Assembly (NCBI GenBank): GCA_038255675.1
Contig: JBBSLB010000002.1
Coordinates: 1 to 34,976 of the forward strand
Direction of reading: 5' to 3'
DNA length: 34,976 nt
DNA from: Mycobacteriales bacterium
Lineage (GTDB): Bacteria > Actinomycetota > Actinomycetes > Mycobacteriales > SCTD01
The notes beneath the pieces are model-generated. The model saw only the letters and a list, made by a program, of their open reading frames with translations. It had not been told where the DNA came from and did not search any database. How positions within the stretch are numbered: position 1 is the stretch's first letter; each line of letters begins with the position of its first letter. Shown piece after piece: positions 8,148 through 21,225 of this stretch. The translations under genes and the position numbers were made by a program.

Positions 8148-8289
8148 GGCGCGAGGCTAGACGCGCTCCGGCGGCGCCGCCGGGGGCCGGATCGGGGCCG
8201 ACGGGGACGTCCGGCAGGATGGGCGCGGGCCTGACCGGTCCGGACCGCACGCCCCACCCCTGCCCGACCTGCAGACGAGGAGCCGCTCC

Positions 8290-10631
<2,342 letters not shown>

Positions 10632-10660
10632 CCGAGCCGCGCCCGCTGCCGCAGGCCTGG

Positions 10661-10882
10661 GTGCCGCGCGTCTTCAACGTCGCGCTGGCCGTCCTGCTGC
10701 TGCTTCTCGTCGCCCCCGTCGTGACCAACTTCGAGGGCAAGCCGTGGTACGTCCAGGCGTTCTTCGTGTTCTTCGCCGTGCCGGTGTTCCTGCTCGTCGC
10801 GGCCTGCCTGGCCTCCGCCGCGCGTCCCGGCTCGCTCGGCCGGGCCGTCCGCCGCCGGCGCAGGGCCCGCAAGCGCGGCTGA
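10661..10882 (+). CDS. Small two-helix membrane protein (hypothetical)
   Basis: 73 aa with a GTG start. It has two hydrophobic helices (ALAVLLLLLVAPVV and FFVFFAVPVFLLVAACLA) and a basic tail RRRRRARKRG. GC3 is high. Confidence 0.5.
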   Translation: MPRVFNVALAVLLLLLVAPVVTNFEGKPWYVQAFFVFFAVPVFLLVAACLASAARPGSLGRAVRRRRRARKRG

Positions 10883-10938
10883 CCCGCCGCGGGGGCTGAC
10901 CCGGCACACGCTGCCGGCCCGGCTCGCCGTCACCGGAC

Positions 10939-10979
10939 GTGGCGATCACGAGGGGGTCCTGAGCGGGCGAGATCGCCAC
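10939..10979. repeat. 9-bp inverted repeat GTGGCGATC / GATCGCCAC with a 23-nt loop (possible terminator or operator)
   Basis: Arms at 10939-10947 and 10971-10979 are exact reverse complements. The element is intergenic, downstream of 10661-10882 and upstream of the DeoR gene. Confidence 0.4.
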
Positions 10980-11050
10980 ATCCCGGGCCGGCTGCGGCCC
11001 CGTACGGGCCTGCTTACCGGCCGCCTCCTTAACGGGCCGTGACGAAGTGA

Positions 11051-11113
11051 TGGACAACACACAAGAACGGGAGTAGAACCAACGAAACACAGATCGAACG
11101 GAGGTGAACCCAC
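11051..11113 (+). promoter_or_regulatory. Putative promoter/operator region of the PTS operon
   Basis: This is the only conspicuously lower-G+C stretch in the window. TGGACA (11051-11056), a 17-nt spacer and TAGAAC (11074-11079) resemble -35/-10 boxes. Direct repeats GAACGGGAG (11065-11073) and GAACGGAGG (11096-11104) are present, and the second overlaps the SD GGAGG before ATG 11114. Confidence 0.3.
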
Positions 11114-11875
11114 ATGTACGCCGAGGAGCGCCAGCAGTACATCGTCGGACTCGCCCGCAGTCGCGGCCGGGTCGACGTGGCCGAGCTGGCCGCCGAGCTC
11201 CAGGTCACCACCGAGACCGTTCGCCGCGACCTGACCATCCTGGAGCGGCAGGGCGTCCTGCGCCGGGTGCACGGCGGGGCCATCCCGGTGGAGCGGCTCG
11301 GCTTCGAGCCGGCGCTGGCGGCCCGTGACAGCGTCATGACCGCCGAGAAGGACCGCATCGCCAAGGCCGCGCTGGCCGAGCTGCCCCAGGAGGGCGCGAT
11401 CCTGCTCGACGCCGGCTCGACGACCGCCCGGCTGGCCGACCTGCTGCCGTCGGACCGGCCGCTCACGGTCGTCACCAACGCGCTGCCGTTGGCGCTGTCG
11501 CTGGTGTCCCGCCCGCACCTCACGGTGCTGCTGCTCGGCGGGCGCGTCCGCGGCCGGACCCTCGCCTCGGTCGACAGCTGGGCCACGGACGCCCTCGCCG
11601 GCACCTTCGTCGACGTCGCCTTCGTGGCCACCAACGGGGTGTCGGTGCGCCGCGGGCTGACGACCCCCGACCACGCCGAGGCCGCGACGAAGCGGGCGAT
11701 GATGGCCTCTGCAGCCCGCGTGGTGCTGCTCGCCGACCACACGAAGGTCGGGGTCGACCACCTCACCCGCTTCGGCGACCTGCACCAGGTCGACACGCTC
11801 ATCACCGACAGCGGGCTCGACGACCGCGCCACCGCCGAGCTCGAGGGCGCCGGACCGCGGGTGGTGCGCGCGTGA
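11114..11875 (+). CDS. DeoR/GlpR-family transcriptional repressor (FruR-like)
   Basis: 253 aa reading MYAEERQQYIVGLARSRGRVDVAELAAELQVTTETVRRDLTILERQGVLRRVHGGA..., i.e. an N-terminal DeoR HTH plus a C-terminal sugar-phosphate sensor domain. Confidence 0.9.
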   Translation: MYAEERQQYIVGLARSRGRVDVAELAAELQVTTETVRRDLTILERQGVLRRVHGGAIPVERLGFEPALAARDSVMTAEKDRIAKAALAELPQEGAILLDAGSTTARLADLLPSDRPLTVVTNALPLALSLVSRPHLTVLLLGGRVRGRTLASVDSWATDALAGTFVDVAFVATNGVSVRRGLTTPDHAEAATKRAMMASAARVVLLADHTKVGVDHLTRFGDLHQVDTLITDSGLDDRATAELEGAGPRVVRA

Positions 11876-12816
11876 TCGTCACCGTGACGCTGAACCCCAG
11901 CCTGGACCGCACCATCGAGGTCGGCGGCCTGGTCCGTGGCGCGCTGGTCCGCGGGACCTCGACGCGCGTGGACGCCGGCGGCAAGGGCGTCAACGTCGCT
12001 CGGGCGCTGACCGCCAACGGCGTGGCCGCCCGTGCCGTGCTGCCGCTCGGCGGGCCGGACGGCGAGCGCCTGCTGGACCTGCTCGCCTCCGCCGGGCTCG
12101 ACGTGGTGGCGGTCCCGGTCCGCAGCGCCACCCGCTCCAACGTCAGCCTGGTCGAGCCGGACGGGACGACGACGAAGGTCAACGAGCCGGGCGGACGCCT
12201 CGACCGCGACGACGTCGAGGCGCTGGTCGCCAGTGTGCTGGCTGCCGCCACGGGCGCCGACTGGGCCGTGCTGTGCGGCAGCCTGCCGCCGGGTGTGCCA
12301 CACGACGTCTACGCCCGCCTGTGCCGCGCCCTGCAGGCCGCCGGGACCAACGTCGCCGTCGACAGCAGCGGCTCGGCGCTCACCGCCGCCCTGGACGTCG
12401 GGCCCGCGCTCGTCAAGCCCAACCGCGAGGAGCTGGCCGAGACCGCCGGGCGTCCCCTGCTGACCCTGGGGGACGTCCTGACGGCGGCCGAGCAGCTGCG
12501 CGCACGTGGCGCCGGCAGCGTGCTGGCCAGCCTGGGCGCCGACGGCGCCCTGCTGGTCGAGCGAGCCGGCGTCCTGCGCGGCCACTCGACGGTGCTCGCC
12601 CCGCGCAGCTCGGTCGGGGCCGGCGACGCGATGCTCGCCGGCTTCCTGTCGGCCGGTGCCGCCGGCGCTCCCGCTCTTGCCACCGCCCTCGCCTGGGGCG
12701 CGGCCGCGGCCGGCCTGCCCGGCAGTCGCATGCCCCTTGCTTCCGACCTCCGGCCGGACGACGTCACCACCAGCCCGCTGCTCGACCGCACGACCCCGCT
12801 GTCCACGTCCCACTGA
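11872..12816 (+). CDS. fruK: PfkB-family ketohexose-phosphate kinase (1-phosphofructokinase / tagatose-6-P kinase class)
   Basis: 314 aa reading MIVTVTLNPSLDRTIEV...GGKGVNVARAL...KPNREEL...GAGDAMLAGF. The GTG start overlaps the DeoR stop (GTGA). Confidence 0.85.
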   Translation: MIVTVTLNPSLDRTIEVGGLVRGALVRGTSTRVDAGGKGVNVARALTANGVAARAVLPLGGPDGERLLDLLASAGLDVVAVPVRSATRSNVSLVEPDGTTTKVNEPGGRLDRDDVEALVASVLAAATGADWAVLCGSLPPGVPHDVYARLCRALQAAGTNVAVDSSGSALTAALDVGPALVKPNREELAETAGRPLLTLGDVLTAAEQLRARGAGSVLASLGADGALLVERAGVLRGHSTVLAPRSSVGAGDAMLAGFLSAGAAGAPALATALAWGAAAAGLPGSRMPLASDLRPDDVTTSPLLDRTTPLSTSH

Positions 12817-12832
12817 CCCAGGAGCGCACCCC

Positions 12833-14005
12833 ATGACCGCAGTCGCTGACGCAAAGCACCTAGAGGGAGCCGGGTTCCGCGCGCGCATCCAGCGCGGCGG
12901 CGGCTACCTCGCCGGCATGATCATGCCGAACATCGCTGCCTTCATCGCGTGGGGCCTGATCACCGCGATGTTCATCCCCACCGGCTGGATCCCGAACGAG
13001 CGGCTGGCCGAGCTGGTCGGCCCGATCATCACCGTGCTGCTGCCCGTCCTGATCGGCTACACCGGCGGGCGCCTCGTGCACGGCCAGCGCGGCGCGGTCG
13101 TCGGCGCCGTCGCCACCATGGGCGTGGTCGTCGGGACCGACATCCCGATGTTCCTGGGCGCCATGCTCATCGGCCCGGCCACCGCGTACGTCCTGAAGCT
13201 CATCGACGGGTTCATCCAGGACAAGGTCAAGGTCGGCTTCGAGATGCTGGTGGACAACTTCACCGCCGGCATCCTCGGCGTGCTGGCGGCACTCGCCGGG
13301 CTGCTCGGGATCGGCCCGGTCGTCGAGGGGCTCACCAAGGCGGCCGGCAACGGCGTGGACTTCCTCGTCGACACCGGCTTCCTGCCACTGGTCTCCCTGC
13401 TGGTCGAGCCCGCCAAGGTGCTCTTCCTCAACAACGCCATCAACTTCGGCGTTCTGTCCCCGCTCGGCGTCGCCGAGGCGACCGAGACCGGCAAGTCGGT
13501 GCTGTTCATGGTCGAGACCAACCCCGGCCCCGGCCTGGGAATCCTGCTGGCCTACTTCTTCTTCGGCCCGCGCCTGCTGCGCCTGTCCGCTCCCGGCGCC
13601 ATCGTCATCCACTTCCTCGGCGGGATCCACGAGATCTACTTCCCGTACGTCCTGATGAAGCCCAAGCTGATCCTCGCCGCCATCGCCGGCGGCGCCGCGG
13701 GCGTCGGCACGGCCGTCGTGACGGGTGCCGGCCTGGTCTCGACTCCCTCGCCCGGCAGCATCTTCGCCTACGCCGCGGTCACCCCCCGCGGAGGCTTCAT
13801 CCCGGTGATCCTGTCGATCCTGGTCGCCACAGCCGTGTCCTTCGCCGTCGCCTCGCTGCTGCTGGGCTTCGGCCGCGGCGAGAAGGCCGAGGAGGCGCCG
13901 CCGGTGCACGAGGACGCCGTCCCCGTGCAGGCATCGTCGGCCACAGCAGAGACGACCGCCCCCACGCACGCCCCGGCTATGCGCAACACCACCGCGGAGG
14001 CGTGA
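12833..14005 (+). CDS. PTS mannitol-class EIIC component (stand-alone)
   Basis: ATG 12833 follows AGGAG. The product reads ...RARIQRGGGYLAGMIMPNIAAFIAWGLITAMFIPTGWIPNERLAELVGPIITVLLPVLIGYTGGRLV...HFLGGIHEIYFPYVLMKP. This is near-collinear with my recollection of the E. coli MtlA EIIC domain. The upstream part of the track ORF (12506-12832) overlaps fruK out of frame. Confidence 0.9.
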   Translation: MTAVADAKHLEGAGFRARIQRGGGYLAGMIMPNIAAFIAWGLITAMFIPTGWIPNERLAELVGPIITVLLPVLIGYTGGRLVHGQRGAVVGAVATMGVVVGTDIPMFLGAMLIGPATAYVLKLIDGFIQDKVKVGFEMLVDNFTAGILGVLAALAGLLGIGPVVEGLTKAAGNGVDFLVDTGFLPLVSLLVEPAKVLFLNNAINFGVLSPLGVAEATETGKSVLFMVETNPGPGLGILLAYFFFGPRLLRLSAPGAIVIHFLGGIHEIYFPYVLMKPKLILAAIAGGAAGVGTAVVTGAGLVSTPSPGSIFAYAAVTPRGGFIPVILSILVATAVSFAVASLLLGFGRGEKAEEAPPVHEDAVPVQASSATAETTAPTHAPAMRNTTAEA

Positions 14006-14006
14006 G

Positions 14007-14315
14007 ATGCCAACAATTGCAGGCGCTTCCGTGACCAAAGTTGTCATCGCGTGCGATGCGGGGATGGGCAGCAGCGTCATGCTGGCCAGCCAGATGCGCA
14101 AGCGGCTGAAGAAGTACGACGTCGCCGTCGAGCACGTCGCGGTCAACGCGATCCCGGCCGACGCCCAGGTGGTGCTCTGCCACAGCGGGCTCGCCCAGCG
14201 CGCCCGCGGCACCGCCCCCGACGCGGTCGTCGTGCCGTTCCAGATCTTCATGGGCGACCCGGTCTTTGACCAGGTCGAGGCCGCGATCCGGGACGGCGGG
14301 ACCCTCGATGGGTGA
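14007..14315 (+). CDS. PTS mannitol-class EIIB component (stand-alone)
   Basis: 102 aa. VTKVVIACDAGMGSSVMLASQMRKRL matches the MtlA EIIB phospho-cysteine loop (IVACDAGMGSS). Confidence 0.88.
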   Translation: MPTIAGASVTKVVIACDAGMGSSVMLASQMRKRLKKYDVAVEHVAVNAIPADAQVVLCHSGLAQRARGTAPDAVVVPFQIFMGDPVFDQVEAAIRDGGTLDG

Positions 14316-14778
14316 CCAGCTCACCGCCGATGTGCTGCAGCTCGAGGGCGTCCGCCTCGGCCTGACCGCGGTCGACAAGTGGGATGCCGTCCGCCAGGCC
14401 GGCGAGCTGCTCGTGGAGCTCGGGGCGGTCGAGCCCGACTACGCGCCCGCCATGCTCGAGCGCGAGCGCTCGGTCTCGACCTTCATCGGCGAGGGCGTCG
14501 CCATCCCGCACGGCACCGACGCCGCCCGGGCGCTGGTGCTGCGGACCACGCTCGCGGTCCTGCAGTTCCCGGCCGGCGTGGACTGGGACGGCAACGACGC
14601 CCGCATCTGCGTCGCCATCGCCGCCAGCGGCGAGGAGCACGTCGAGGTGCTGTCCGCCCTGGCTGTCGTGCTCATGGACGCCGAGGCCGCCGAGCGCCTC
14701 CGCTCCGCCACCGACCCCCAGGACGTGCTGGCGCTGCTCGCCGGCCTGTCCGCAGACGACGAGGAGACCCCCGCATGA
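14308..14778 (+). CDS. PTS mannitol-class EIIA component (PTS_EIIA_2, stand-alone)
   Basis: ATG 14308 overlaps the EIIB stop (ATGGGTGA). ...VEPDYAPAMLERERSVSTFIGEGVAIPHGT... matches the MtlA EIIA phospho-histidine region. Confidence 0.88.
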   Translation: MGDQLTADVLQLEGVRLGLTAVDKWDAVRQAGELLVELGAVEPDYAPAMLERERSVSTFIGEGVAIPHGTDAARALVLRTTLAVLQFPAGVDWDGNDARICVAIAASGEEHVEVLSALAVVLMDAEAAERLRSATDPQDVLALLAGLSADDEETPA

Positions 14779-15815
14779 GAGTGGCCCGCTTCTACGAGCC
14801 CGGCGACGTACGGCTGGAGGACGCCCCGGAGCCGCAGGTCGGCGCCGGCGAGGTGAAGATCCGTGTGCGCGCCTGCTCGACCTGCGGCACGGACGTGAAG
14901 ATCCTCAACCACGGGCACCAGCACATCGACCCGCCCCGGGTCATGGGGCACGAGGTGGCCGGCGAGGTCGTCGACGTCGGTGCCGGCGTCAGCGGCTGGG
15001 CCGCCGGCGACCGCGTCCAGGTCATTGCGGCCGTCCCGTGCGGGACGTGCGCAGAGTGCGCGCGCGGCCGCATGACCATCTGCCCGAACCAGACCTCCGT
15101 CGGCTACCACTACGAGGGCGGCTTCGCGGAGTACCTCGTCGTGCCGCAGCAGGTGCTGGCCGTCGACGGCCTGAACCGGATTCCCGACGGCATCAGCTTC
15201 GCCGAGGCCTCGGTCGCCGAGCCACTGGCCTGCGTGCTGAACGGCCAGGAGCTCGCCGGTGTCGGACCGGGCGACGTCGTCGTCGTCGTGGGCGCCGGGC
15301 CGATCGGCTGCCTGCACGTGCGGCTGGCCCGCTCGCGCGGCGCCGCGCAGGTGCTGCTCGTCGAGCTCAACCGGTCGCGGCTCGACCTGTCGGCCGGCGT
15401 CGTCGCCCCCGACGAGGCGATCTGCAGCGCCGAGACCGACGCCGTGGACGCCGTCCTCAAGGCCACCGACGGCCGCGGCGCCGACGTCGTGATCACGGCG
15501 GCAGCCTCGGGCCAGGCCCAGGAGGAGGCGTTGCTCATGGCGGCGCGCGGCGGCCGGGTCAGCCTGTTCGGCGGACTGCCCAAGGACAAGCCGACCATCA
15601 CCCTGGACTCCAACCTCGTGCACTACCGCGAGCTGACGGTCGTCGGCGCCAACGGTTCGAGCCCGTCGCACAACAAGCGGGCGCTGGAGCTCATTGCCTC
15701 AGGTGACGTCCCGGTGCTCGACCTCATCACGCACCGGCTCCCCCTCGAGGGGGTGCTCGAGGCCTTCGGCATCGTCGCGCGCGGCGAGGCCATCAAGGTC
15801 ACTGTCGAGCCGTAA
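14775..15815 (+). CDS. Zn-dependent MDR-family alcohol/polyol(-phosphate) dehydrogenase
   Basis: ATG 14775 overlaps the EIIA stop (ATGA). The product reads MRVARFYEPGDVRLEDAPEPQVGAGEVKIRVRACSTCGTDVKILNHGHQHIDPPRVMGHEVAGEVVDVG...CGTCAECARG...VVGAGPIGC. It has the catalytic and structural Zn ligand patterns and the GxGxxG motif. Confidence 0.85.
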   Translation: MRVARFYEPGDVRLEDAPEPQVGAGEVKIRVRACSTCGTDVKILNHGHQHIDPPRVMGHEVAGEVVDVGAGVSGWAAGDRVQVIAAVPCGTCAECARGRMTICPNQTSVGYHYEGGFAEYLVVPQQVLAVDGLNRIPDGISFAEASVAEPLACVLNGQELAGVGPGDVVVVVGAGPIGCLHVRLARSRGAAQVLLVELNRSRLDLSAGVVAPDEAICSAETDAVDAVLKATDGRGADVVITAAASGQAQEEALLMAARGGRVSLFGGLPKDKPTITLDSNLVHYRELTVVGANGSSPSHNKRALELIASGDVPVLDLITHRLPLEGVLEAFGIVARGEAIKVTVEP

Positions 15816-15851
15816 GCCACGTCCCTGCAGCATTTCTCGAGGAGGAACTCC

Positions 15852-16136
15852 ATGGCACGACGCGAGGCGACCATCGGCTCACGGGTCGGGCTGCACGCCC
15901 GGCCGGCCGCGATCTTCGTTCAGGCCAGCGCTGCGGCGGGCGTCCCGGTGAAGGTGGGCAAGCCCGACGGGAAGCTCGTCGACGCCCGCAGCATGCTCGG
16001 TGTGCTGGCGCTCGGCGCCAGGAACGGCGACACCGTGGTGCTCGAGGCCGAGGGTGACGGCGCAGAGGCGGCGCTTGATTCCCTGGTCGCGCTGCTCCAG
16101 CAGGACCACGACGAGCCGGCCGCCGCGGATGCCTGA
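15852..16136 (+). CDS. ptsH: Phosphocarrier protein HPr
   Basis: 94 aa. GGAGGA precedes the ATG. The product MARREATIGSRVGLHARPAAIFVQ... contains the His-15 motif GLHARPA. Confidence 0.92.
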   Translation: MARREATIGSRVGLHARPAAIFVQASAAAGVPVKVGKPDGKLVDARSMLGVLALGARNGDTVVLEAEGDGAEAALDSLVALLQQDHDEPAAADA

Positions 16137-17793
16137 CCTGGCTACGGCCCTGAGCGGCATCGCCGTCTCCCCCGGCACGGGTGCGGGGCCAGTGTTCTGC
16201 CTGGCCCCGCCCCCGGCACTGCCCGCCCAGGACGGTCCGGTCGACGACCTGACCGCCGAGGCGAGCCGCGCCGTCGCGGCGCTCGAGCAGGTCGCCGCCG
16301 ACCTCGAGCGCCGCGCGGCCACGGCGACGAGCACCGCCGCCGACGTGCTGCAGGCGCAGGCGCTCATGGCCCGCGACCCGGTGCTGGCCGAGTCGGTCGC
16401 CGGGCGGGTGCTCGAGGGGGCTGGCGCGCCGTGGGCCGTCGACGCCGCCCTGCGCGAGCAGCAGGCCGTCTTCACCGACCTGGGCGGCTACCTCGGTGAG
16501 CGCGCGGCCGACCTGGACGACATCCGGGCGCGCGCGGTCGCTGTCTTGCTCGGGCTGGCGATGCCGGGCGTGCCGTCACCGGGAGTGCCGTTCGTCCTGG
16601 TCGCCGATGACCTCGCGCCGGCCGACACCGCGCAGCTCGACCGCAGCCAGGTGCGAGCCCTGGTCACCGCTCGCGGCGGCCCCACCAGCCACACCGCGAT
16701 CCTGGCCCGTGCGCTGGGCATCCCGGCGGTCGTCTGCTGTCGCGGCATCCTCGACCTGGCCGACGGCACGTCCGTGCTCGTCGACGGCACCACGGGTCAG
16801 GTCCGGCAGATCCGCGAGGACGAGGTCGCCGGCGCCCAGGCCGAGGCCGACGCCGCCCGTCTCGCGCAGGCCGCGGTCGCCGGCCCAGGCCGGACCGCCG
16901 ACGGCCACCCCGTCAAGCTGCTGCGCAACGTCGGCTCGGTTGAGGACCTCGCAGGCACCGCCGGAGACGAGTCCTTCGAGGGCGTCGGCCTGTTCCGTTC
17001 CGAGTTCCTCTACCTCGGTCGGACCTCCGCGCCGAGCGCGCAGGAGCAGGAGGCTGCCTACGTCGAGATGTTCGAGGCGATGGGCGGCGCGAAGATCGTG
17101 CTTCGCACCCTCGACGCCGGCGCCGACAAGCCGCTGCCGTTCCTGGACATGGAGGCCGAGGACAACCCGGCCCTGGGAGTACGAGGGCTGCGCGTCGCCC
17201 GGCGCCGGCCCGAGGTGCTCGCCGACCAGCTCGGGGCGGTCGCCCGCGCCGCCGAGCGGACCGGCGCCGACGTCTGGGTGATGGCACCGATGGTCTCTAC
17301 CGTCGAGGAGGCGGCAGCCTTCGCCGAGCAGGTGCACGCGCTCGGCCTGCCCCGGGCCGGGGTGATGGTCGAGGTGCCGGCCGCCGCGCTGCAGGCCGCG
17401 CGGATCCTCGAGGTCGTCGACTTCCTCAGCATCGGCACGAACGACCTGAGCCAGTACACGCTGGCGACCGACCGCATGAACGGCGAGCTGGCCGACCTGC
17501 TCGACCCGTGGCAACCGGCGCTGCTGCAGCTGCTCGCCATGTGCGCGGCGGCCGGCCGTGAGGCCGGCAAGTCGGTGAGCATCTGCGGCGAGGCGGCGGC
17601 CGATCCGCTGCTGGCCCCCGTCCTGGTCGGCATGGGCATCACCAGCCTGTCGATGTCGGCCGCGTCGCTGCCGGCCGTCCGGGCGGCGATGGCCACCCGA
17701 ACACTGGAGTCGTGCGAGAACCTCGCCCGGCTCGCGCTCGCGGCCCGCGACGCCACCTCGGCCCGGGCCGCTGTGGCCGAGCGGTCCGCCTGA
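16129..17793 (+). CDS. ptsI: Phosphoenolpyruvate-protein phosphotransferase (PTS Enzyme I)
   Basis: 554 aa from ATG 16129, which overlaps the ptsH 3' end. Motifs present: GIAVSPGTGAGPV, GGPTSHTAILARALGIPAVV (phospho-His), FRSEFLY, and IGTNDLSQYTLATDR...C (catalytic Cys in SICGE). Confidence 0.93.
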   Translation: MPDLATALSGIAVSPGTGAGPVFCLAPPPALPAQDGPVDDLTAEASRAVAALEQVAADLERRAATATSTAADVLQAQALMARDPVLAESVAGRVLEGAGAPWAVDAALREQQAVFTDLGGYLGERAADLDDIRARAVAVLLGLAMPGVPSPGVPFVLVADDLAPADTAQLDRSQVRALVTARGGPTSHTAILARALGIPAVVCCRGILDLADGTSVLVDGTTGQVRQIREDEVAGAQAEADAARLAQAAVAGPGRTADGHPVKLLRNVGSVEDLAGTAGDESFEGVGLFRSEFLYLGRTSAPSAQEQEAAYVEMFEAMGGAKIVLRTLDAGADKPLPFLDMEAEDNPALGVRGLRVARRRPEVLADQLGAVARAAERTGADVWVMAPMVSTVEEAAAFAEQVHALGLPRAGVMVEVPAAALQAARILEVVDFLSIGTNDLSQYTLATDRMNGELADLLDPWQPALLQLLAMCAAAGREAGKSVSICGEAAADPLLAPVLVGMGITSLSMSAASLPAVRAAMATRTLESCENLARLALAARDATSARAAVAERSA

Positions 17794-17797
17794 GCGG

Positions 17798-18886
17798 TCA
17801 GCCACGGCGGCGCGGCTCGAGCTCCAGCGGCGCGTAGTAGTGCTCGGCGCCTTCCCGCTCGACGTCGGCGAGCCAGTGCCCGTCGTACTGCTCGGTCGGG
17901 CCCTGAGCCGGGTCGGCGAGCGACCAGGCCTGGCGGCGGTAGGTCCAGTTGTCGGGCTGCAGCCGGTGGCTCTCCCGGAACCACGCAACGGCCGGCTCCG
18001 GCGACCCGGCGGCGTGCAGGTGCTGGCCGAGGGCGAAGGCCGCGGCCGCCTGGGCCTGCTCCGCCGGGCGCGGGCGGGAGCGCTCGAGGACCTCCTCGGC
18101 CGACAGCGCGAAGCGGCTGGCGGGGCCGTGTGCGACCCAGTCGCGCAGCGCGCCGACGTAGCCCTCCGGGTCGATCTGCATCGCCTTGAGGTGGGGCTGC
18201 ACGGTGCGCAGCCGGCTCACCGCCGCCGCCGGCAGCGACGCCACGACCTTGGGGTCCTCGAGGTCGTAGCTGGCAAAGGTCGGAGGCGCCGGGTAGGCCG
18301 TCTCGGGCGGGCGGACGACAGTGCCGTCCTCGTCGACCCAGATGCCCGACGGGACGTTGACCACGCCGAACAGCTCACCGAGCCGGTGTCCGCTGTCCAC
18401 CACGACCGGGAAGTCGACGCCGGCGGCGAACGGCGCCGCGGCCGCGGCGCTGGCGTCCATCGCCACGCTGTACAGCTCGAAGCCCGAGGGCGCGAGCTCA
18501 GTGCGCAGTGCCTGCCAGACCGGCAGGTCGAAGCGGCAGCCTCACCAGCTCGCCCAGGCGGCGATCAGCACCTTCTTCCCGCGCAGGGCAGCGAGGGGGA
18601 AGGGCTCGCCCGTCAGCGTCGGGAGCACCAGGTCGGGGGCCTGGACGGTGGTCATCGCCCGTCCACCGCCCGACGGGCCGAGCGACCAGAGACCGGCCGG
18701 CTCGTCGTGCAGCAGCGGCCGCCCCATCCGCTCGGCGAAGGCGGCGAGGTCGACCTGGCCGTCACGAAGCGTGCCGGGCGGCAGCGGCACGCACTGCTCC
18801 TTGCGGCACGCCCCCTCGGGCTTGACCTCCCAGCCGGTCTCCCGCGCGAGCTGGTCGACGGGCACCCGAGATGTCGTGGAGATCAC
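17798..18886 (-). CDS. Thioredoxin-fold ResA/TlpA-like selenoprotein candidate (W-A-x-x-U-G-C motif); the in-frame TGA at 18544-18542 is read as selenocysteine
   Basis: The two track ORFs (tail of 18542-19801 and 17798-18466) are in the same frame, separated only by one TGA. Read-through gives ...APDLVLPTLTGEPFPLAALRGKKVLIAAWASW-U-GCRFDLPVWQALRTELAPSGFELYSVAMDAS...VNVPSGIWVDEDGTVV.... This is a continuous thioredoxin/redoxin fold with the TGA at the position of the first redox Cys. GC3 stays high across the TGA. The start is uncertain: GTG 18886 is preferred because the GC3-rich segment GWEVKPEGACRKEQCVPL is coding. Alternatives are GTG 18865 and ATG 18655. I see no signal peptide or TM helix. 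Confidence 0.72.
18511..18527 (-). promoter_or_regulatory. Candidate bacterial SECIS stem-loop for the WAxxUGC gene
   Basis: The minus-strand RNA is CCUGCC-GGUCU-GGCAGG, a 6-bp stem with a 5-nt loop. It starts 14 nt after the UGA. As I recall, the loop GGUCU resembles the apical G-G-U-C loop of the E. coli fdhF SECIS. Confidence 0.55.
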
Positions 18887-18907
18887 ACCGCAGGTTACCG
18901 TCAGGGA

Positions 18908-20344
18908 GTGCAGCTGCCGGACGGGTGGGTCGTCGTGCTCAAGCGCGACTGCCCCACGTGCACCCTCGTCGAGCCGGTGCTGCACCAGCTGGCTGATGCC
19001 GGCGGGCTGACCGTCTACAGCCAGGACGACCCGGGCTTCCCCGCCGGCCTGACCGTCGTCGACGACAGCGAGCTCGAGTCGAGCTGGCGGCTGCAGGTCG
19101 ACACCGTCCCGACGCTGCTGCGGGTGGAGGACGGCGCCGAGGTCGCCCGTGCCGTCGGTTGGCTCCGCAGCTCCTGGGAGGAGCTGACCGGGGTGACCGG
19201 GCTCGGCCCCGACCTGCCCGACCACCGGCCCGGCTGCGGCTCCCGCTCGGTCGAGTGGGGCGTCGAGGAGGAGCTCGACCGGCGGTACGGCGAGCGCATC
19301 CTGACCGCCCGCACCGTCGAGCTGGCCGACCTCGAGGACGAGTACGAGGCGGCGTACGCCCGCGGCTGGACCGACGGCCTGCCTGTCGTCCCGCCGACCG
19401 AGGCGCGGGTTCTGGCGATGCTGAAGGGCACGTCGCGCGCGCCGGACGAGGTCGTCGCCGTCGTGCCGCCGGACCTGGTGGAGTGCACCGTCGAGAAGGT
19501 CGCGGTCAACGCGGTGCTGGCCGGCTGCCTGCCCGAGCACCTGCCGGTGGTCCTGGCCGCCGTTGCCGCGGCCTGCACCGACGGCTTCAACATGCACGGC
19601 GTGCTCGCCACGACGATGCCGGCCGGCCCGGTCGTCGTCGTGAACGGCCCTGTGGCGCGGGCGATCGGCATGAACAGCGGGGTGAACGCGCTCGGGCAGG
19701 GCAACCGCGCCAACGCCACGATCGGCCGGGCGCTGCAGCTCGTGGTCCGCAACGTCGGCGGCGGCCGCCCCGGCGAGGTCGACCGCGGCAGCCAGGGCCA
19801 ACCGGGCAAGTACACCGCCTGCTTCGCCGAGGACGAGGAGGGCTCCCCCTTCGACCCCCTGGCCGAGAGCCGTGGGGTCGAGGGCTCGGCCCTCACCCTG
19901 TTCGCCGGCTGCGGCTGGTGGCCCGTCGTCGACCAGCTGTCACGCACCCCGGAGTCGCTGGCCCGCAGCCTCGCGGCGGGCCTGCGCGGCGTCGGCCACC
20001 CCAAGCTGGCGATCGTCTTCGACGCGCTGCTGGTGCTCAGCCCCGAGCACGGCCGGGTCTTCCGCGAGGCCGGCTGGGACCGCGCGCGGCTGCTGGCGGA
20101 GCTCGACGGGCTGCTGACCGTCCCGGCCGCTGAGCTCTCCCGCGGTGTCGACGGCATGGCCGAGGGGATGCCACCGGCCATGATCGCCGGTTGGGGCCAG
20201 GCCGTGCCGCTGCCGAAGTTCCGCCCCGGCGGCCTGCTCATCGCCCACGCCGGCGGCACCGCCGGGCTGTTCTCGACCATCGTGCCCGGCTGGGTCAGCG
20301 GCGCCGGCGGCAGCGAGCCCACCACCGTCCCGATAGGAGCCTGA
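18908..20344 (+). CDS. Thioredoxin-like (CPTC) domain fused to a ~350-aa conserved domain of unknown function; partner of the two selenoprotein candidates
   Basis: Only the 3' part of the 834-aa track ORF (17840-20344) is credible. From GTG 18908 it reads VQLPDGWVVVLKRDCPTCTLVEPVLHQLADAGGLTVYSQDD...DTVPTLLRVEDG (thioredoxin-like), then ...ARGWTDGLPVVPPTEARVLAML...VAVNAVLAGCLPEHLPVVLAA...GVNALGQGNRANATIGRALQLVVRNVGGGRPGEVD.... The region upstream of 18908 is antisense to the ResA-like gene. The stop overlaps the next start (TGATG). Confidence 0.7.
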   Translation: MQLPDGWVVVLKRDCPTCTLVEPVLHQLADAGGLTVYSQDDPGFPAGLTVVDDSELESSWRLQVDTVPTLLRVEDGAEVARAVGWLRSSWEELTGVTGLGPDLPDHRPGCGSRSVEWGVEEELDRRYGERILTARTVELADLEDEYEAAYARGWTDGLPVVPPTEARVLAMLKGTSRAPDEVVAVVPPDLVECTVEKVAVNAVLAGCLPEHLPVVLAAVAAACTDGFNMHGVLATTMPAGPVVVVNGPVARAIGMNSGVNALGQGNRANATIGRALQLVVRNVGGGRPGEVDRGSQGQPGKYTACFAEDEEGSPFDPLAESRGVEGSALTLFAGCGWWPVVDQLSRTPESLARSLAAGLRGVGHPKLAIVFDALLVLSPEHGRVFREAGWDRARLLAELDGLLTVPAAELSRGVDGMAEGMPPAMIAGWGQAVPLPKFRPGGLLIAHAGGTAGLFSTIVPGWVSGAGGSEPTTVPIGA

Positions 20345-20859
20345 TGCGCGTCCTGCTGGATCCCACGTCCGAGCGCGTTCCCTCGACGCGCACCCTGAAC
20401 CCGCGGCCTGCCTCGCTCGACGGACTGACGGTCGGGCTGCTCGACATCTCCAAGGCGCGCGGTGACGTGCTGCTCGACCGGCTGGAGTCCCGGCTCGTGG
20501 CCGATGGGGTGACCGTCCGGCGCTACGCCAAGCCGACCTTCGCCAAGCCCGCGCCGGTTGACCTGCGGCACGAGATCGCCGTGCAGTGCGAGGTGGTCAT
20601 CGAGGCGCTCGCCGATTGAGGCAGTTGCGCGTCGTGCAGTGTGCACGACATCGCCGACCTCGAGGCCCGCGGCCTGGTGGGGGTCTTCCTGGCCAGCAGC
20701 GAGTTCCAGGACGCCGCCGACGCGCAGTCGCGCGCACTCGGCCTTGCCGTGTCCTACGTCCTGGTGCCGCACCCGATCCAGGACCGCACCGACGAGGAGA
20801 TGACGGCGCTGGCCGATGCGGCGTACGACGCCGTTCTGGCGGCAATTACGGACAGATAG
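20344..20859 (+). CDS. UGSC-motif small selenoprotein candidate; the in-frame TGA at 20617-20619 is read as selenocysteine (U92)
   Basis: ATG 20344 is preceded by TAGGAG. Track ORFs 20191-20619 and 20641-20859 are in the same frame, 21 nt apart. Read-through gives ...CEVVIEALAD-U-GSCASCSVHDIADLEARGLVGVFLASSEFQDAADAQSRALGL...VLVPHPIQDRTDEEM...ITDR. This is 171 aa with the motif U-x-x-C-x-x-C. Confidence 0.75.
20631..20649 (+). promoter_or_regulatory. Candidate bacterial SECIS stem-loop for the UGSC gene
   Basis: GUCGUGCA-GUG-UGCACGAC is a perfect 8-bp stem, or 7 bp with loop AGUGU. It starts 11 nt after the UGA, and the loop contains G-U. This is the canonical spacing for bacterial SECIS elements. 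Confidence 0.6.
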
Positions 20860-20946
20860 CGAGATGTCGCCCCGTCACCCGTTCAGAGGTTGATCCGACC
20901 GGCCGAGGAGAGGAGCATCGGCCAAGAGACCGAACGGGGGTGCGGC

Positions 20947-21225
20947 GTGGACAACGACCGGGATCACGAGCTGCTGGCCCACTTCTGGAGCCTGCACGCC
21001 GCTGTCATCAAGCGCGACGGCCTCGAGGACCGGATGCGCGCCGGCGTGCTCGACCAGGAGCTGCTCGACCGCAGCCTGGCCGCCGCGGAGGGCGTGCTCG
21101 AGGCCAGATCGGCGCTCTACCGCCACCTGATGGCCCATGGCTGGACGCCACCACCCGCGCTGGTGCGCGACCTCGCCTACGACGAGATCGTGCTGTCGGA
21201 GACCGACGGCGCGCTGCACGGCTGA
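20947..21225 (+). CDS. Hypothetical small protein
   Basis: High-GC3 frame reading VDNDRDHELLAHFWSLHAAVIKRDGLEDRMRAGVLDQELLDRSLAAAEGVLEARSALYRHLMAHGWTPPPALVRDL.... The start is ambiguous (TTG 20890 or GTG 20947). I recognise no family. Confidence 0.45.
   Translation: MDNDRDHELLAHFWSLHAAVIKRDGLEDRMRAGVLDQELLDRSLAAAEGVLEARSALYRHLMAHGWTPPPALVRDLAYDEIVLSETDGALHG

What the first reader, a model, noticed from the sequence alone, without database searches (positions are those of the whole stretch)
18908..20344. CPTC-thioredoxin fusion to a large uncharacterised domain as the likely catalytic partner
The N-terminal ~90 aa (VVLKRDCPTCTLVEPVL...DTVPTLLRVEDG) look like a minimal thioredoxin/glutaredoxin fold.

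The remaining ~350 aa carry strongly patterned motifs: GWTDGLPVVPPTE, VAVNAVLAGC, GVNALGQGNRANATIGRALQLVVRNVGG and QGQPGKYTACFAEDE. I cannot place these in any family I know.

The stop overlaps the UGSC start. This suggests stoichiometric co-production and a physical complex.
Basis: inference. Interest (0 to 1): 0.7.

Follow-up and report, generated by a model that had tools for sequence, protein, structure and literature searches.

The report
Thioredoxin-fused partner of UGSC selenoprotein
This gene fuses a small thioredoxin-like module to a large, widespread protein domain of unknown function that almost always sits beside, or is fused to, the orphan "UGSC" selenoprotein, so the pair probably forms a thioredoxin-powered redox enzyme that nobody has characterised.

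Summary
Window 18908-20344 (+) is a real 478-aa gene. Residues 1-95 form a divergent thioredoxin fold with a conserved CxTC.

X matches nothing in Pfam, NCBIfam or PDB sequences, yet the family spans at least 5,384 clusters at 50% identity. Its AlphaFold model is confident (pLDDT 95). Its only structural neighbour is class I Fe-S fumarate hydratase, and that match is weak and has no sequence-profile support.

The link to UGSC is strong. A Sec-type UGSC gene lies directly downstream in 78 of 80 homologous loci from many phyla. X and UGSC are also naturally fused, in both orders.

Other relatives replace the thioredoxin module with a Redoxin or a ferredoxin-thioredoxin-reductase beta domain. Some sit in trxB-trxA-X-UGSC operons, and paralogues lie in organic-acid or amino-acid catabolic clusters.

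Best reading: X plus UGSC is the core of a thioredoxin-driven thiol/selenol reductase. Cys207 is the key residue of X and the fused thioredoxin is the built-in electron donor. The substrate is unknown.

The third gene (ResA-like WAxxUGC) is not a conserved partner. A UGSC fusion to an "Unknown_1" domain was noted in 2008, and no function has been reported since.

The parts
18908..20344 (+). Trx-X gene (478 codons plus stop): N-terminal thioredoxin-like module, linker, large uncharacterised domain X
   Evidence: Translation. Homologues up to 91% identity at the same length. AlphaFold2 model pLDDT 95.1.
18908..19192 (+). Thioredoxin-fold module (residues 1-95). Active-site Cys15 (18950-18952) and Cys18 (18959-18961) form CPTC; cis-Pro loop TVP68T.
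   Evidence: Foldseek probability 1.0 to thioredoxins. C15, C18, P68 and T69 invariant in 78 homologues. 31% identity to Arthrobacter operon TrxA. Below the curated thioredoxin HMM cut-offs.
19193..19309 (+). Linker (residues 96-134) with the invariant PGC110G motif (Cys110 at 19235-19237) in a predicted beta-hairpin, followed by a lower-confidence stretch
   Evidence: C110 is 100% conserved in 78 Trx-X proteins. In the 90-sequence alignment it is seen in 44 sequences, nearly all of them Trx- or Redoxin-fused, and in none of the stand-alone or UGSC-fused forms. pLDDT falls to 72 at residues 121-130.
19310..20341 (+). Domain X (residues ~135-478), the UGSC-associated domain. Key residues: D156, C207 (19526-19528), T235, T236, R267, N269, R274, C305 (19820-19822), E308, H381, A448-G-G450.
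   Evidence: Conservation. No Pfam, NCBIfam or PDB-sequence hit. Stand-alone model pLDDT 95.3, pTM 0.93. 5,384 50%-identity clusters at E<=1e-3.
20344..20859 (+). UGSC family selenoprotein gene (171 codons). Sec codon TGA at 20617-20619 within the motif D-U-G-S-C-A-S-C. The start overlaps the Trx-X stop by one base.
   Evidence: PF24696 E 2.8e-41; NF041046 146.1 bits against a cut-off of 125. Coordinates. The same position is TGA in 74 and TAG in 3 of 77 homologous loci, never a Cys codon.
20631..20649 (+). SECIS-like hairpin (8-bp stem GUCGUGCA/UGCACGAC, 3-nt loop) starting 11 nt after the UGA
   Evidence: Read from the sequence. Fold of 20617-20668 is -21.5 kcal/mol with z only -1.68 in this GC-rich context. 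No Rfam hit.
17798..18886 (-). Neighbour, not part of the conserved unit: divergently transcribed ResA-like WAxxUGC selenoprotein gene, with in-frame TGA at 18542-18544 (minus strand)
   Evidence: NF041054 368.6 bits against a cut-off of 300. Coordinates. Near the pair in only 2 of 80 homologous loci.

Best explanation
The gene encodes a three-part protein: a thioredoxin-like module (CxTC), a linker with one invariant cysteine (Cys110), and a ~345-aa domain X that is the obligate partner of the UGSC selenoprotein encoded next door.

Proposed mechanism. X and UGSC form a complex that is the core of a thiol/selenol-dependent reductase.
- X provides the substrate pocket and the near-invariant Cys207, usually together with Cys305.
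- UGSC provides the redox-active Sec92-x-x-Cys95 pair.
- After each turnover an oxidised selenenyl-sulfide or disulfide must be re-reduced.
- The fused thioredoxin module (Cys15/Cys18, possibly relayed through Cys110) does this, and is itself recharged by the cell's thioredoxin reductase.

In relatives the same electron-supply job is done by a fused Redoxin or ferredoxin-thioredoxin-reductase beta module, or by trxB-trxA genes in the same operon. The logic resembles the Stickland reductases (glycine or proline reductase), where a UxxC selenoprotein, a large substrate-binding subunit and the thioredoxin system work together.

The substrate is unknown. Paralogues sit in clusters for uptake and catabolism of carboxylates, CoA esters and amino-acid derivatives, so a small organic acid is the best guess.

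Shown: the domain architecture, residue conservation, gene linkage, natural fusions and the thioredoxin-system genes in relatives' operons.

Inferred: the physical complex, the direction of electron flow, the catalytic role of Cys207/Cys305 and the class of substrate.
For: 1. Linkage to UGSC. A Sec-type UGSC gene is directly downstream in 78 of 80 Trx-X loci from many phyla. It is the only neighbour conserved across phyla.

2. Natural fusions. Of 150 cluster representatives, 12 carry the post-Sec half of UGSC fused in front of X (gene callers stop at the Sec TGA), 4 are full UGSC-X, and 3 are X-UGSC ending at the Sec codon.

3. Interchangeable electron-supply modules in front of X:
- Trx (this gene);
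- AhpC/Redoxin (P0125, P0182);
- ferredoxin-thioredoxin reductase beta (P0155), with UGSC(Sec) directly upstream.

A NifU-like redox module also occurs, as a C-terminal tail on X (P0263).

4. Thioredoxin-system genes in relatives' operons:
- Arthrobacter: trxB-trxA-X-UGSC;
- Roseovarius: X-UGSC-trxB;
- Variovorax SRS16: trxB-TctC-SDR-X-UGSC;
- V. boronicumulans: TrxB-like-TctC-UGSC-X fusion.

5. Conserved cysteines. C15, C18, C110 and C207 are 100% conserved and C305 is 95% conserved in 78 Trx-X proteins. C207 is kept in 89 of 90 and C305 in 84 of 90 diverse X domains.

6. Catabolic contexts of paralogues. Neighbours include peptide or Liv-type ABC transporters, TctC and TRAP transporters, family III CoA-transferases, CoA ester lyase, RraA, AcnX, an enolase-superfamily enzyme and amidohydrolases.

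7. The N-terminal module is a genuine thioredoxin fold.
Against: - No biochemical data exist for any member. Reviews from 2022 and 2026 still list UGSC function as unknown.
- No structure of the complex could be computed here, so the proximity of Sec92/Cys95, Cys207/Cys305, Cys110 and Cys15/Cys18 is untested.
- Some UGSC-X fusions have a redox-dead UGSC module (DMGTS or GWSG instead of U/CGSC) while keeping all X motifs (Vibrio, Sporomusa, P0228). So the chemistry of X does not always need the UGSC selenol or thiol.
- Some X genes have no UGSC nearby.
- C305 is replaced by A, T, S or V in about 5% of members, so a strict Cys207-Cys305 catalytic disulfide is not universal.
- The Trx-X/UGSC pair in this window has no catabolic neighbours that hint at a substrate.
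Confidence: 0.5

Rival explanations
1. X is a non-redox enzyme of organic-acid or amino-acid metabolism, such as an isomerase, epimerase or hydro-lyase, that uses Cys207 (with or without Cys305) as nucleophile or acid/base. UGSC and the thioredoxin module only keep these oxidation-prone thiols reduced, or gate activity by redox state.
For: - All X motifs, including C207 and C305, are retained in fusions whose UGSC module has lost its Sec/Cys pair. These sit beside aconitase X and enolase genes.
- Some X genes lack any UGSC neighbour.
- Contexts are rich in dehydratases, lyases and racemase-superfamily enzymes.
- The only structural neighbour is a hydro-lyase, class I fumarate hydratase.
Against: - Keeping a dedicated selenoprotein plus a fused or operon-encoded thioredoxin system, including trxB, merely for maintenance is unusual. 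Every one of the 77 UGSC partners read at that codon in Trx-X loci is a Sec form, which points to demanding redox chemistry.
- Redoxin and FTR-beta modules are interchangeable with Trx in front of X, which fits stoichiometric electron delivery.
Confidence: 0.2
2. Trx-X is not the substrate-binding enzyme. It is a dedicated reductase or recycling factor for UGSC, and UGSC is the terminal enzyme acting on an unknown oxidant or substrate.
For: - X always co-occurs with electron-supply modules.
- UGSC carries the Sec, normally the catalytic residue of a selenoenzyme.
- Invariant UGSC residues (K37, K63, H101-D102, H143-P144) could form a pocket of their own.
Against: - A 345-aa domain with about 45 near-invariant residues, many of them polar (D156, T235, T236, R267, N269, R274, E308, H381), is far more than a thioredoxin-to-redoxin adaptor needs.
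- X paralogues diversify with catabolic context, and tandem X-X or X1-UGSC-X2 arrangements occur, which suggests X sets substrate specificity.
- X exists without a redox-active UGSC.
Confidence: 0.15
3. X is a very divergent relative of the alpha or N-terminal domain of class I Fe-S fumarate/tartrate hydro-lyases. It binds an Fe-S cluster or metal through Cys207, Cys305 and a third ligand (Cys110 or the UGSC Sec/Cys), with UGSC playing the role of the beta subunit.
For: - The only consistent Foldseek hits of the X model are Leishmania class I fumarate hydratases (E 8e-4, probability up to 0.77, about 370 aligned columns) and the M. jannaschii alpha subunit (E 4.8e-3).
- The layout of a ~345-aa plus a ~170-aa protein, adjacent or fused, mirrors the alpha/beta or fused fumarate hydratases.
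- A non-significant hhalign match places X 'NAVLAGC207LPEH' on FumA 'TAAC224PPYH'. From my own recollection of the enzyme, FumA Cys224 is an Fe-S ligand.
- Redox-dead UGSC fusions carry three additional cysteines in X.
Against: - TM-scores are only 0.20-0.28 with rmsd about 16 A.
- Profile-profile comparison of X against a fumarate hydratase alpha profile gives probability 0.13%, and UGSC against the FumA C-domain gives 0.3%.
- No member hits Pfam Fumerase even at E<=10.
- Only two cysteines are conserved across X, several members have just C207 plus C305, and C305 is sometimes lost.
- C110 is absent from stand-alone and UGSC-fused forms.
- The fumarate hydratase CQDTG motif is absent.
Confidence: 0.08

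Closest known systems
Glycine/sarcosine/betaine reductase and D-proline reductase (Stickland reductases: GrdB/PrdB selenoprotein, GrdE/PrdA, thioredoxin system)
   Same: - A small selenoprotein with a UxxC redox motif works with a larger partner subunit.
- Thioredoxin and thioredoxin reductase genes lie in the same operon in relatives.
- The implied chemistry is dithiol/selenol-driven reduction of a small carboxylate.

The features of the Stickland enzymes themselves come from established knowledge of those enzymes, not from a test here.
   Different: - There is no detectable sequence relationship: no GRDB or Gly_reductase Pfam hit for X or UGSC members even at E<=10.
- The hosts are mostly aerobic aquatic or soil bacteria and haloarchaea rather than amino-acid-fermenting anaerobes.
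- There is no evidence for a pyruvoyl group or a protein-C-like partner.
Thioredoxin-fused client reductases (e.g. Neisseria PilB Trx-MsrA-MsrB; plant APS reductase with a Trx/Grx-like domain; peroxiredoxin-glutaredoxin fusions)
   Same: A thioredoxin-fold CxxC module is fused in cis to the enzyme it is presumed to recycle. In relatives the module can be swapped for another redoxin or supplied in trans.
   Different: The client domain X is unrelated to Msr, APS/PAPS reductase or peroxiredoxin families. It also needs an additional selenoprotein partner.
Class I (Fe-S) fumarate hydratase / L-tartrate dehydratase, alpha or N-terminal domain (Pfam PF05681)
   Same: - It is the best and only consistent structural neighbour of the X model.
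- It has a two-gene or fused alpha-plus-beta architecture of similar sizes.
- It has a cysteine at the end of a helix followed by Pro.
- It acts on small dicarboxylates, which fits the catabolic contexts of X paralogues.
   Different: - The structural match is weak: TM 0.20-0.28 and probability at most 0.77.
- There is no sequence-profile support: hhalign probability 0.13%.
- The three-Cys cluster signature is not present.
'Unknown_1' domain fused to the UGSC-containing protein in ocean metagenomes (Zhang and Gladyshev 2008, PMC2398784, Fig. S1A)
   Same: The paper describes a conserved domain of unknown function fused to UGSC, also found as a separate protein in a few aquatic organisms, with conserved Cys. 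The UGSC-X fusions found here fit that description.
   Different: Identity could not be verified because the published alignment is held only as an image. The paper did not report the Trx-X form, the near-universal operon linkage, the trxB/trxA operons or a structure.

Membership tests
Thioredoxin superfamily (N-terminal module, residues 1-95) | Thioredoxin fold (beta-alpha-beta ... beta-beta-alpha) | tested here: met
   AlphaFold2 model with pLDDT above 90 over the module. Foldseek probability 1.0 and TM (target) 0.55-0.73 to many thioredoxins.
Thioredoxin superfamily (N-terminal module, residues 1-95) | CxxC at the start of helix 1, and a cis-Pro loop | tested here: met
   C15-P-T-C18 precedes helix 16-31. 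C15, C18, P68 and T69 (in T-V-P68-T69) are invariant in 78 homologues.
Thioredoxin proper (TIGR01068 / PF00085) | Score above the curated HMM cut-off | tested here: not met
   TIGR01068 scores 15.9 bits against a cut-off of 96.8. PF00085 is not reported for this protein at E<=0.1. It is a divergent Trx-fold module, not a bona fide thioredoxin.
UGSC family (seleno)protein (downstream gene 20344-20859) | Curated HMM cut-off, and in-frame UGA at the U-G-S-C motif | tested here: met
   NF041046 scores 146.1 bits against a cut-off of 125, and PF24696 scores 141.9 bits. TGA at 20617-20619 lies in D-U-G-S-C.
UGSC family (seleno)protein (downstream gene 20344-20859) | Bacterial SECIS hairpin just downstream of the UGA | tested here: inconclusive
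   An 8-bp hairpin lies 11 nt after the UGA, but the fold z-score is only -1.68 in this 74% G+C sequence. There is no Rfam match.
Class I Fe-S fumarate/tartrate hydro-lyase alpha domain (PF05681) | Shared fold | tested here: inconclusive
   Foldseek E 8e-4 to 1e-2 and probability 0.23-0.77 over about 370 columns, but TM 0.20-0.28 and rmsd about 16 A.
Class I Fe-S fumarate/tartrate hydro-lyase alpha domain (PF05681) | Sequence or profile similarity | tested here: not met
   hhalign of the X profile against FumA and against a 23-sequence fumarate hydratase alpha profile gives probability 0.13% in both cases. None of 90 members hits PF05681 at E<=10.
Class I Fe-S fumarate/tartrate hydro-lyase alpha domain (PF05681) | Three conserved Cys ligands of the [4Fe-4S] cluster (CQDTG, CPP, third Cys) | tested here: not met
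   Only C207 and C305 are conserved across X, C305 is replaced in 6 of 90 sequences, and there is no CQDTG motif.
Glycine/betaine/proline reductase components (GrdB/PrdB PF07355; GrdE/PrdA) | Sequence membership | tested here: not met
   No such Pfam hit for 90 X-containing or 13 UGSC sequences at E<=10.
Glycine/betaine/proline reductase components (GrdB/PrdB PF07355; GrdE/PrdA) | Pyruvoyl group from self-cleavage of the large subunit | not testable with these tools
   This needs intact-mass analysis or SDS-PAGE of purified X.
ResA-like WAxxUGC motif protein (upstream divergent gene) | Curated HMM cut-off, and UGA in W-A-x-x-U-G-C | tested here: met
   NF041054 scores 368.6 bits against a cut-off of 300. 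The motif W-A-S-W-U-G-C has its TGA at 18542-18544 on the minus strand.

The most novel reading that the evidence does not exclude
X plus UGSC is a previously unrecognised class of cofactor-independent (flavin-free, metal-free) thioredoxin-driven selenoenzyme in aerobic bacteria, with a Cys form in haloarchaea. It would be functionally analogous to the Stickland reductases but evolutionarily unrelated and built on a new fold. X paralogues would set the specificity for different small carboxylate or amino-acid-derived substrates. This would finally give a function to UGSC, one of the most abundant orphan selenoprotein families in aquatic metagenomes.
Probability: 0.3. Interest if true: 0.85.

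Novelty: new variant of a known kind. Interest (0 to 1): 0.62.

Why it matters
UGSC has been listed among the most abundant prokaryotic selenoprotein families in ocean and freshwater metagenomes since 2007-2008, and reviews still gave it no function in 2022 and 2026.

This analysis shows that its partner is a very large family with no family model. The partner is linked to UGSC by near-universal adjacency and by fusions in both orders, and it is wired to the thioredoxin system.

That turns an orphan selenoprotein into a testable two- or three-component enzyme. Cultured hosts are available: Geodermatophilus, Arthrobacter, Roseovarius, Variovorax, Paracoccus and haloarchaea.

It also matters for annotation:
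- X deserves a Pfam or NCBIfam model. It is currently named "hypothetical protein" or "thioredoxin family protein".
- Many database entries of UGSC and of UGSC-X fusions are truncated at the Sec codon.

Tried and rejected
- **Sequence searches of X.** Pfam, NCBIfam and PDB sequences gave nothing, with the single protein or a 90-sequence profile.
- **Fold search with the full-length model.** It returned almost only thioredoxins. A second model of X alone was needed to see the fumarate hydratase hits.
- **Fumarate hydratase homology.** I tested it with hhalign against E. coli FumA and against a purpose-built fumarate hydratase alpha profile. Probability was 0.13% both times. UGSC against the FumA C-domain gave 0.3%. 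Membership rejected; only a weak structural resemblance remains.
- **A three-Cys Fe-S site within X.** Rejected, because several members have only C207 and C305, and C110 is confined to Trx- or Redoxin-fused forms.
- **GrdB/PrdB/GrdE relationship.** No weak Pfam hits.
- **UGSC profile against PDB sequences.** Only a chance hit to talin.
- **A three-gene unit with the WAxxUGC protein.** Rejected: 2 of 80 loci.
- **Other universally conserved neighbours.** None apart from UGSC; the remaining clusters are lineage synteny or Sec-machinery genes.
- **Identity with the 2008 'Unknown_1' domain.** Not verifiable, because the alignment is held only as an image.
- **Mukai et al. 2016.** The paper is not held, so it could not be read.
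- **Inter-residue distances.** Model coordinates are not exposed by the tools, so distances between the cysteines could not be measured.
Full report
**1. What is in the window**

It is a real gene. The protein search returned 8000 homologues, which is its cap, led by a 478-aa protein at 91% identity. In addition, 78 homologues taken from species genomes align from the first residues onward.

Its stop codon shares one base with the ATG of the next gene (20344-20859). That gene has an in-frame TGA at 20617-20619 inside the motif D-U-G-S-C. It passes the curated cut-off of NCBIfam NF041046, "UGSC family (seleno)protein" (146 vs 125 bits), and Pfam PF24696. An 8-bp hairpin starts 11 nt after the UGA. 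That looks like a SECIS element but is not statistically distinctive in this composition.

Upstream, only about 21 nt away on the other strand, lies a second selenoprotein gene (17798-18886). It is a ResA-like WAxxUGC protein, scoring 369 bits on NF041054 against a cut-off of 300.

**2. Anatomy of the protein**

AlphaFold2 with a 90-sequence alignment gives a confident model with mean pLDDT 95.1.

- Residues 1-95 are a minimal thioredoxin fold. Foldseek probability to dozens of thioredoxins is 1.0. A pairwise alignment to a canonical WCGPC thioredoxin gives 31% identity.
- Profile hits stay far below the curated thioredoxin cut-offs, so this is a divergent Trx-fold module.
- Cys15 and Cys18 (CPTC here, CxTC in the family) and Pro68 and Thr69 of the T-V-P-T loop are invariant in 78 homologues.
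- The linker carries an invariant P-G-C110-G motif, followed by a lower-confidence stretch.
These are the conserved core of the family: D156-G-L-P159, A205-G-C207, T235-T236, G-x-G-x-R267-x-N269-x-x-x-G-R274-A, C305-x-x-E308, P379-x-H381 and A448-G-G450.

**3. X is a large family that no database describes**

No Pfam, NCBIfam or PDB-sequence match was found, with the single protein or the profile. Sources call members "hypothetical protein" or, because of the N-terminal module, "thioredoxin family protein".

An exhaustive HMMER scan with X alone finds 5,384 clusters at 50% identity with E<=1e-3.

A model of X alone is equally confident (pLDDT 95.3, pTM 0.93). Its only consistent PDB neighbours are class I Fe-S fumarate hydratases. 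The Leishmania enzymes score E about 8e-4 with probability up to 0.77 over about 370 aligned columns. The M. jannaschii alpha subunit scores E 4.8e-3. However, TM-scores are only 0.20-0.28 and rmsd is about 16 A.

I tested this lead further.
- hhalign of the X profile against E. coli FumA gave probability 0.13%, and so did the comparison with a purpose-built fumarate hydratase alpha profile.
- No member touches Pfam Fumerase even at E<=10.
- The three-cysteine cluster signature is absent.

X is therefore not a member of that family. At most there is a weak architectural resemblance, and the fold may be new.

**4. The link to UGSC**

The best 80 loci kept are Trx-X genes from Actinomycetota (Frankiales, Geodermatophilus, many Acidimicrobiia), Myxococcota, Alpha-, Beta- and Gammaproteobacteria, Chloroflexota, Nitrospirales and others.

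A UGSC gene lies directly downstream on the same strand in 77 of the 80. A 78th shows the UGSC start at the contig end. In all 77 the UGSC position is a recoded stop, never a Cys codon. Clustering of all neighbouring ORFs found no other partner conserved across phyla. The WAxxUGC gene is nearby in only 2 loci.

Natural fusions confirm a physical relationship. Among 150 cluster representatives:
- 12 carry the post-Sec half of UGSC in front of X (Sec-type UGSC-X fusions cut by gene callers at the TGA);
- 4 are full UGSC-X;
- 3 are X-UGSC ending exactly at the Sec codon.

Zhang and Gladyshev (2008) reported a "UGSC/Unknown_1 fusion" in ocean metagenomes. This is very probably the same domain, though their alignment is held only as an image.

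**5. Evidence on mechanism**

The position in front of X is occupied by interchangeable disulfide-reductase modules:
- thioredoxin (this gene);
- AhpC/Redoxin;
- the catalytic beta chain of ferredoxin-thioredoxin reductase, still with UGSC(Sec) next door.

A NifU-like redox domain can also follow X or UGSC.

Where no module is fused, thioredoxin-system genes are in the operon:
- Arthrobacter sp. ERGS1:01 has trxB-trxA-X-UGSC;
- Roseovarius THAF8 has X-UGSC-trxB;
- Variovorax SRS16 has trxB-TctC-SDR-X-UGSC;
- V. boronicumulans has a TrxB-like gene, TctC and a UGSC-X fusion.

Within X, Cys207 is kept in 89 of 90 diverse members and Cys305 in 84 of 90. Cys110 occurs in the Trx- or Redoxin-fused forms and not in the stand-alone or UGSC-fused forms.

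The paralogues that are not Trx-fused sit in catabolic clusters. Neighbours include carboxylate, peptide or amino-acid uptake systems (TctC, DctP/TAXI TRAP, SBP_bac_5, Liv-type ABC), family III CoA-transferases, CoA ester lyase, RraA-like proteins, aconitase X, an enolase-superfamily enzyme and amidohydrolases. Tandem X-X proteins and haloarchaeal X1-UGSC(Cys)-X2 arrangements suggest that X works as a (pseudo)dimer and sets specificity.

**6. Best explanation**

X plus UGSC is the core of a thiol/selenol-dependent reductase. X provides the pocket and Cys207 (with or without Cys305). UGSC provides the Sec92-x-x-Cys95 couple. The fused thioredoxin module, possibly through Cys110, re-reduces the oxidised pair and is itself recharged by thioredoxin reductase.

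The architecture, linkage, fusions and trx genes are shown. The complex, the direction of electron flow, the catalytic roles and the class of substrate (a small organic acid or amino-acid derivative) are inferred. I put this at about 0.5.

The logic parallels glycine and proline reductase, from established knowledge of those enzymes, but no homology is detectable.

**7. Rivals**

- **(a) X is a non-redox Cys-dependent isomerase or hydro-lyase kept reduced by its partners (0.2).** In its favour, UGSC-X fusions in Vibrio europaeus and Sporomusa termitida have lost the redox pair (DMGTS) yet keep every X motif, and they sit beside aconitase X.
- **(b) Trx-X merely recycles UGSC, which is the real enzyme (0.15).** Against it, X is far too large and too conserved for an adaptor, and it diversifies with context.
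- **(c) X is a fumarate-hydratase-like Fe-S or metal protein with an inter-subunit site (0.08).** Only the weak fold match supports this.

**8. Novelty and verdict**

The UGSC family and a UGSC fusion to an unknown domain were already on record. The following appear to be new:
- the Trx-fused partner and its near-universal operon with Sec-UGSC;
- fusions in both orders;
- interchangeable reductase modules and trxB-trxA operons;
- a confident structure without a convincing known fold.

I know of no family model or functional study. I rate it a new variant of a known kind (thioredoxin-coupled thiol/selenol oxidoreductase systems). Interest is moderately high, because it makes a long-standing orphan selenoprotein directly testable.

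Noticed in passing
L013, L015 and L061 (UGSC genes downstream of Trx-X in Geodermatophilus sp., G. obscurus DSM 43162 and Blastococcus sp.): The Sec position of UGSC is TAG rather than TGA in these three Geodermatophilaceae loci, against TGA in the other 74. PMC8124441, citing Mukai et al. 2016, states that some bacteria recode UAG to Sec. That this applies to Geodermatophilaceae is from my memory only. The window itself uses TGA. No tRNA-Sec gene lies within these three loci.
   Followed up: partly
L007, L012, L026, L028, L029, L050, L056, L059, L069, L075: Sec-machinery genes sit beside the Trx-X/UGSC pair. ORF clusters whose representative sequences I judged by eye to be selA-like and selB-like (no family search was run on them) each occur in 9 loci. 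A tRNA-Sec (anticodon TCA) lies within a few hundred bases to about 3.5 kb of the pair in 6 loci. This suggests the pair is a principal Sec user and may travel with the Sec trait. selB is also near UGSC-X in Paracoccus ferrooxidans.
   Followed up: partly
window 17798-18886 (-) and 18887-18907: A second selenoprotein gene (ResA-like WAxxUGC, TGA at 18542-18544 on the minus strand, with a TPR-like tail) is transcribed divergently from Trx-X. Only about 21 nt separate the two predicted start codons. This implies leaderless mRNAs, overlapping promoters or a different start. The adjacency is not conserved in relatives.
   Followed up: partly
L095 6323-8008 (Vibrio europaeus pVEu) and L099 6281-8005 (Sporomusa termitida pSPTER); also P0228: UGSC-X fusions whose UGSC module has lost the Sec/Cys pair (A-D-M-G-T-S or G-W-S-G instead of D-U/C-G-S-C) while X keeps all its motifs. 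The Vibrio and Sporomusa proteins also gain three extra cysteines, at about positions 261, 283 and 294. Both lie near aconitase X plus DUF126 genes.
   Followed up: partly
L100 6983-9645 (Halorientalis litorea) and L110 5953-8652 (Halalkalicoccus jeotgali): Haloarchaea carry X1-UGSC(Cys form)-X2 cassettes beside CoA-transferase, CoA ester lyase, RraA and TRAP-transporter genes. The system therefore also exists in archaea, in an all-cysteine version.
   Followed up: partly
L081 11457-11969; L084 10291-10827; P0189, P0197, P0206 and similar: Gene callers split UGSC into two ORFs at the Sec codon and truncate Sec-type UGSC-X and X-UGSC fusions. Many database entries of about 420-460 aa are therefore fragments.
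   Followed up: yes
window 8161-17793 compared with L081: The window is syntenic with a 4.2-Mb actinobacterial contig. Shared genes include citrate synthase upstream, and DUF6328, MFS, MarR, xanthine/uracil permease, GMC oxidoreductase and aldehyde dehydrogenase downstream. Between citrate synthase and Trx-X, however, the window carries a DeoR regulator, a PTS EIIC, a Zn-dependent dehydrogenase, HPr and Enzyme I, plus the WAxxUGC gene. The relative instead has an ABC transporter and an Aminotran_5 gene there.
   Followed up: no
window 20890-21225 (+): A 111-codon ORF immediately after UGSC has no Pfam match. I did not check whether it is conserved.
   Followed up: no
L065 and L080: Two Trx-X loci have no UGSC downstream. 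In L065 the downstream sequence is full of stop codons in all three forward frames, which may indicate an insertion or decay.
   Followed up: partly
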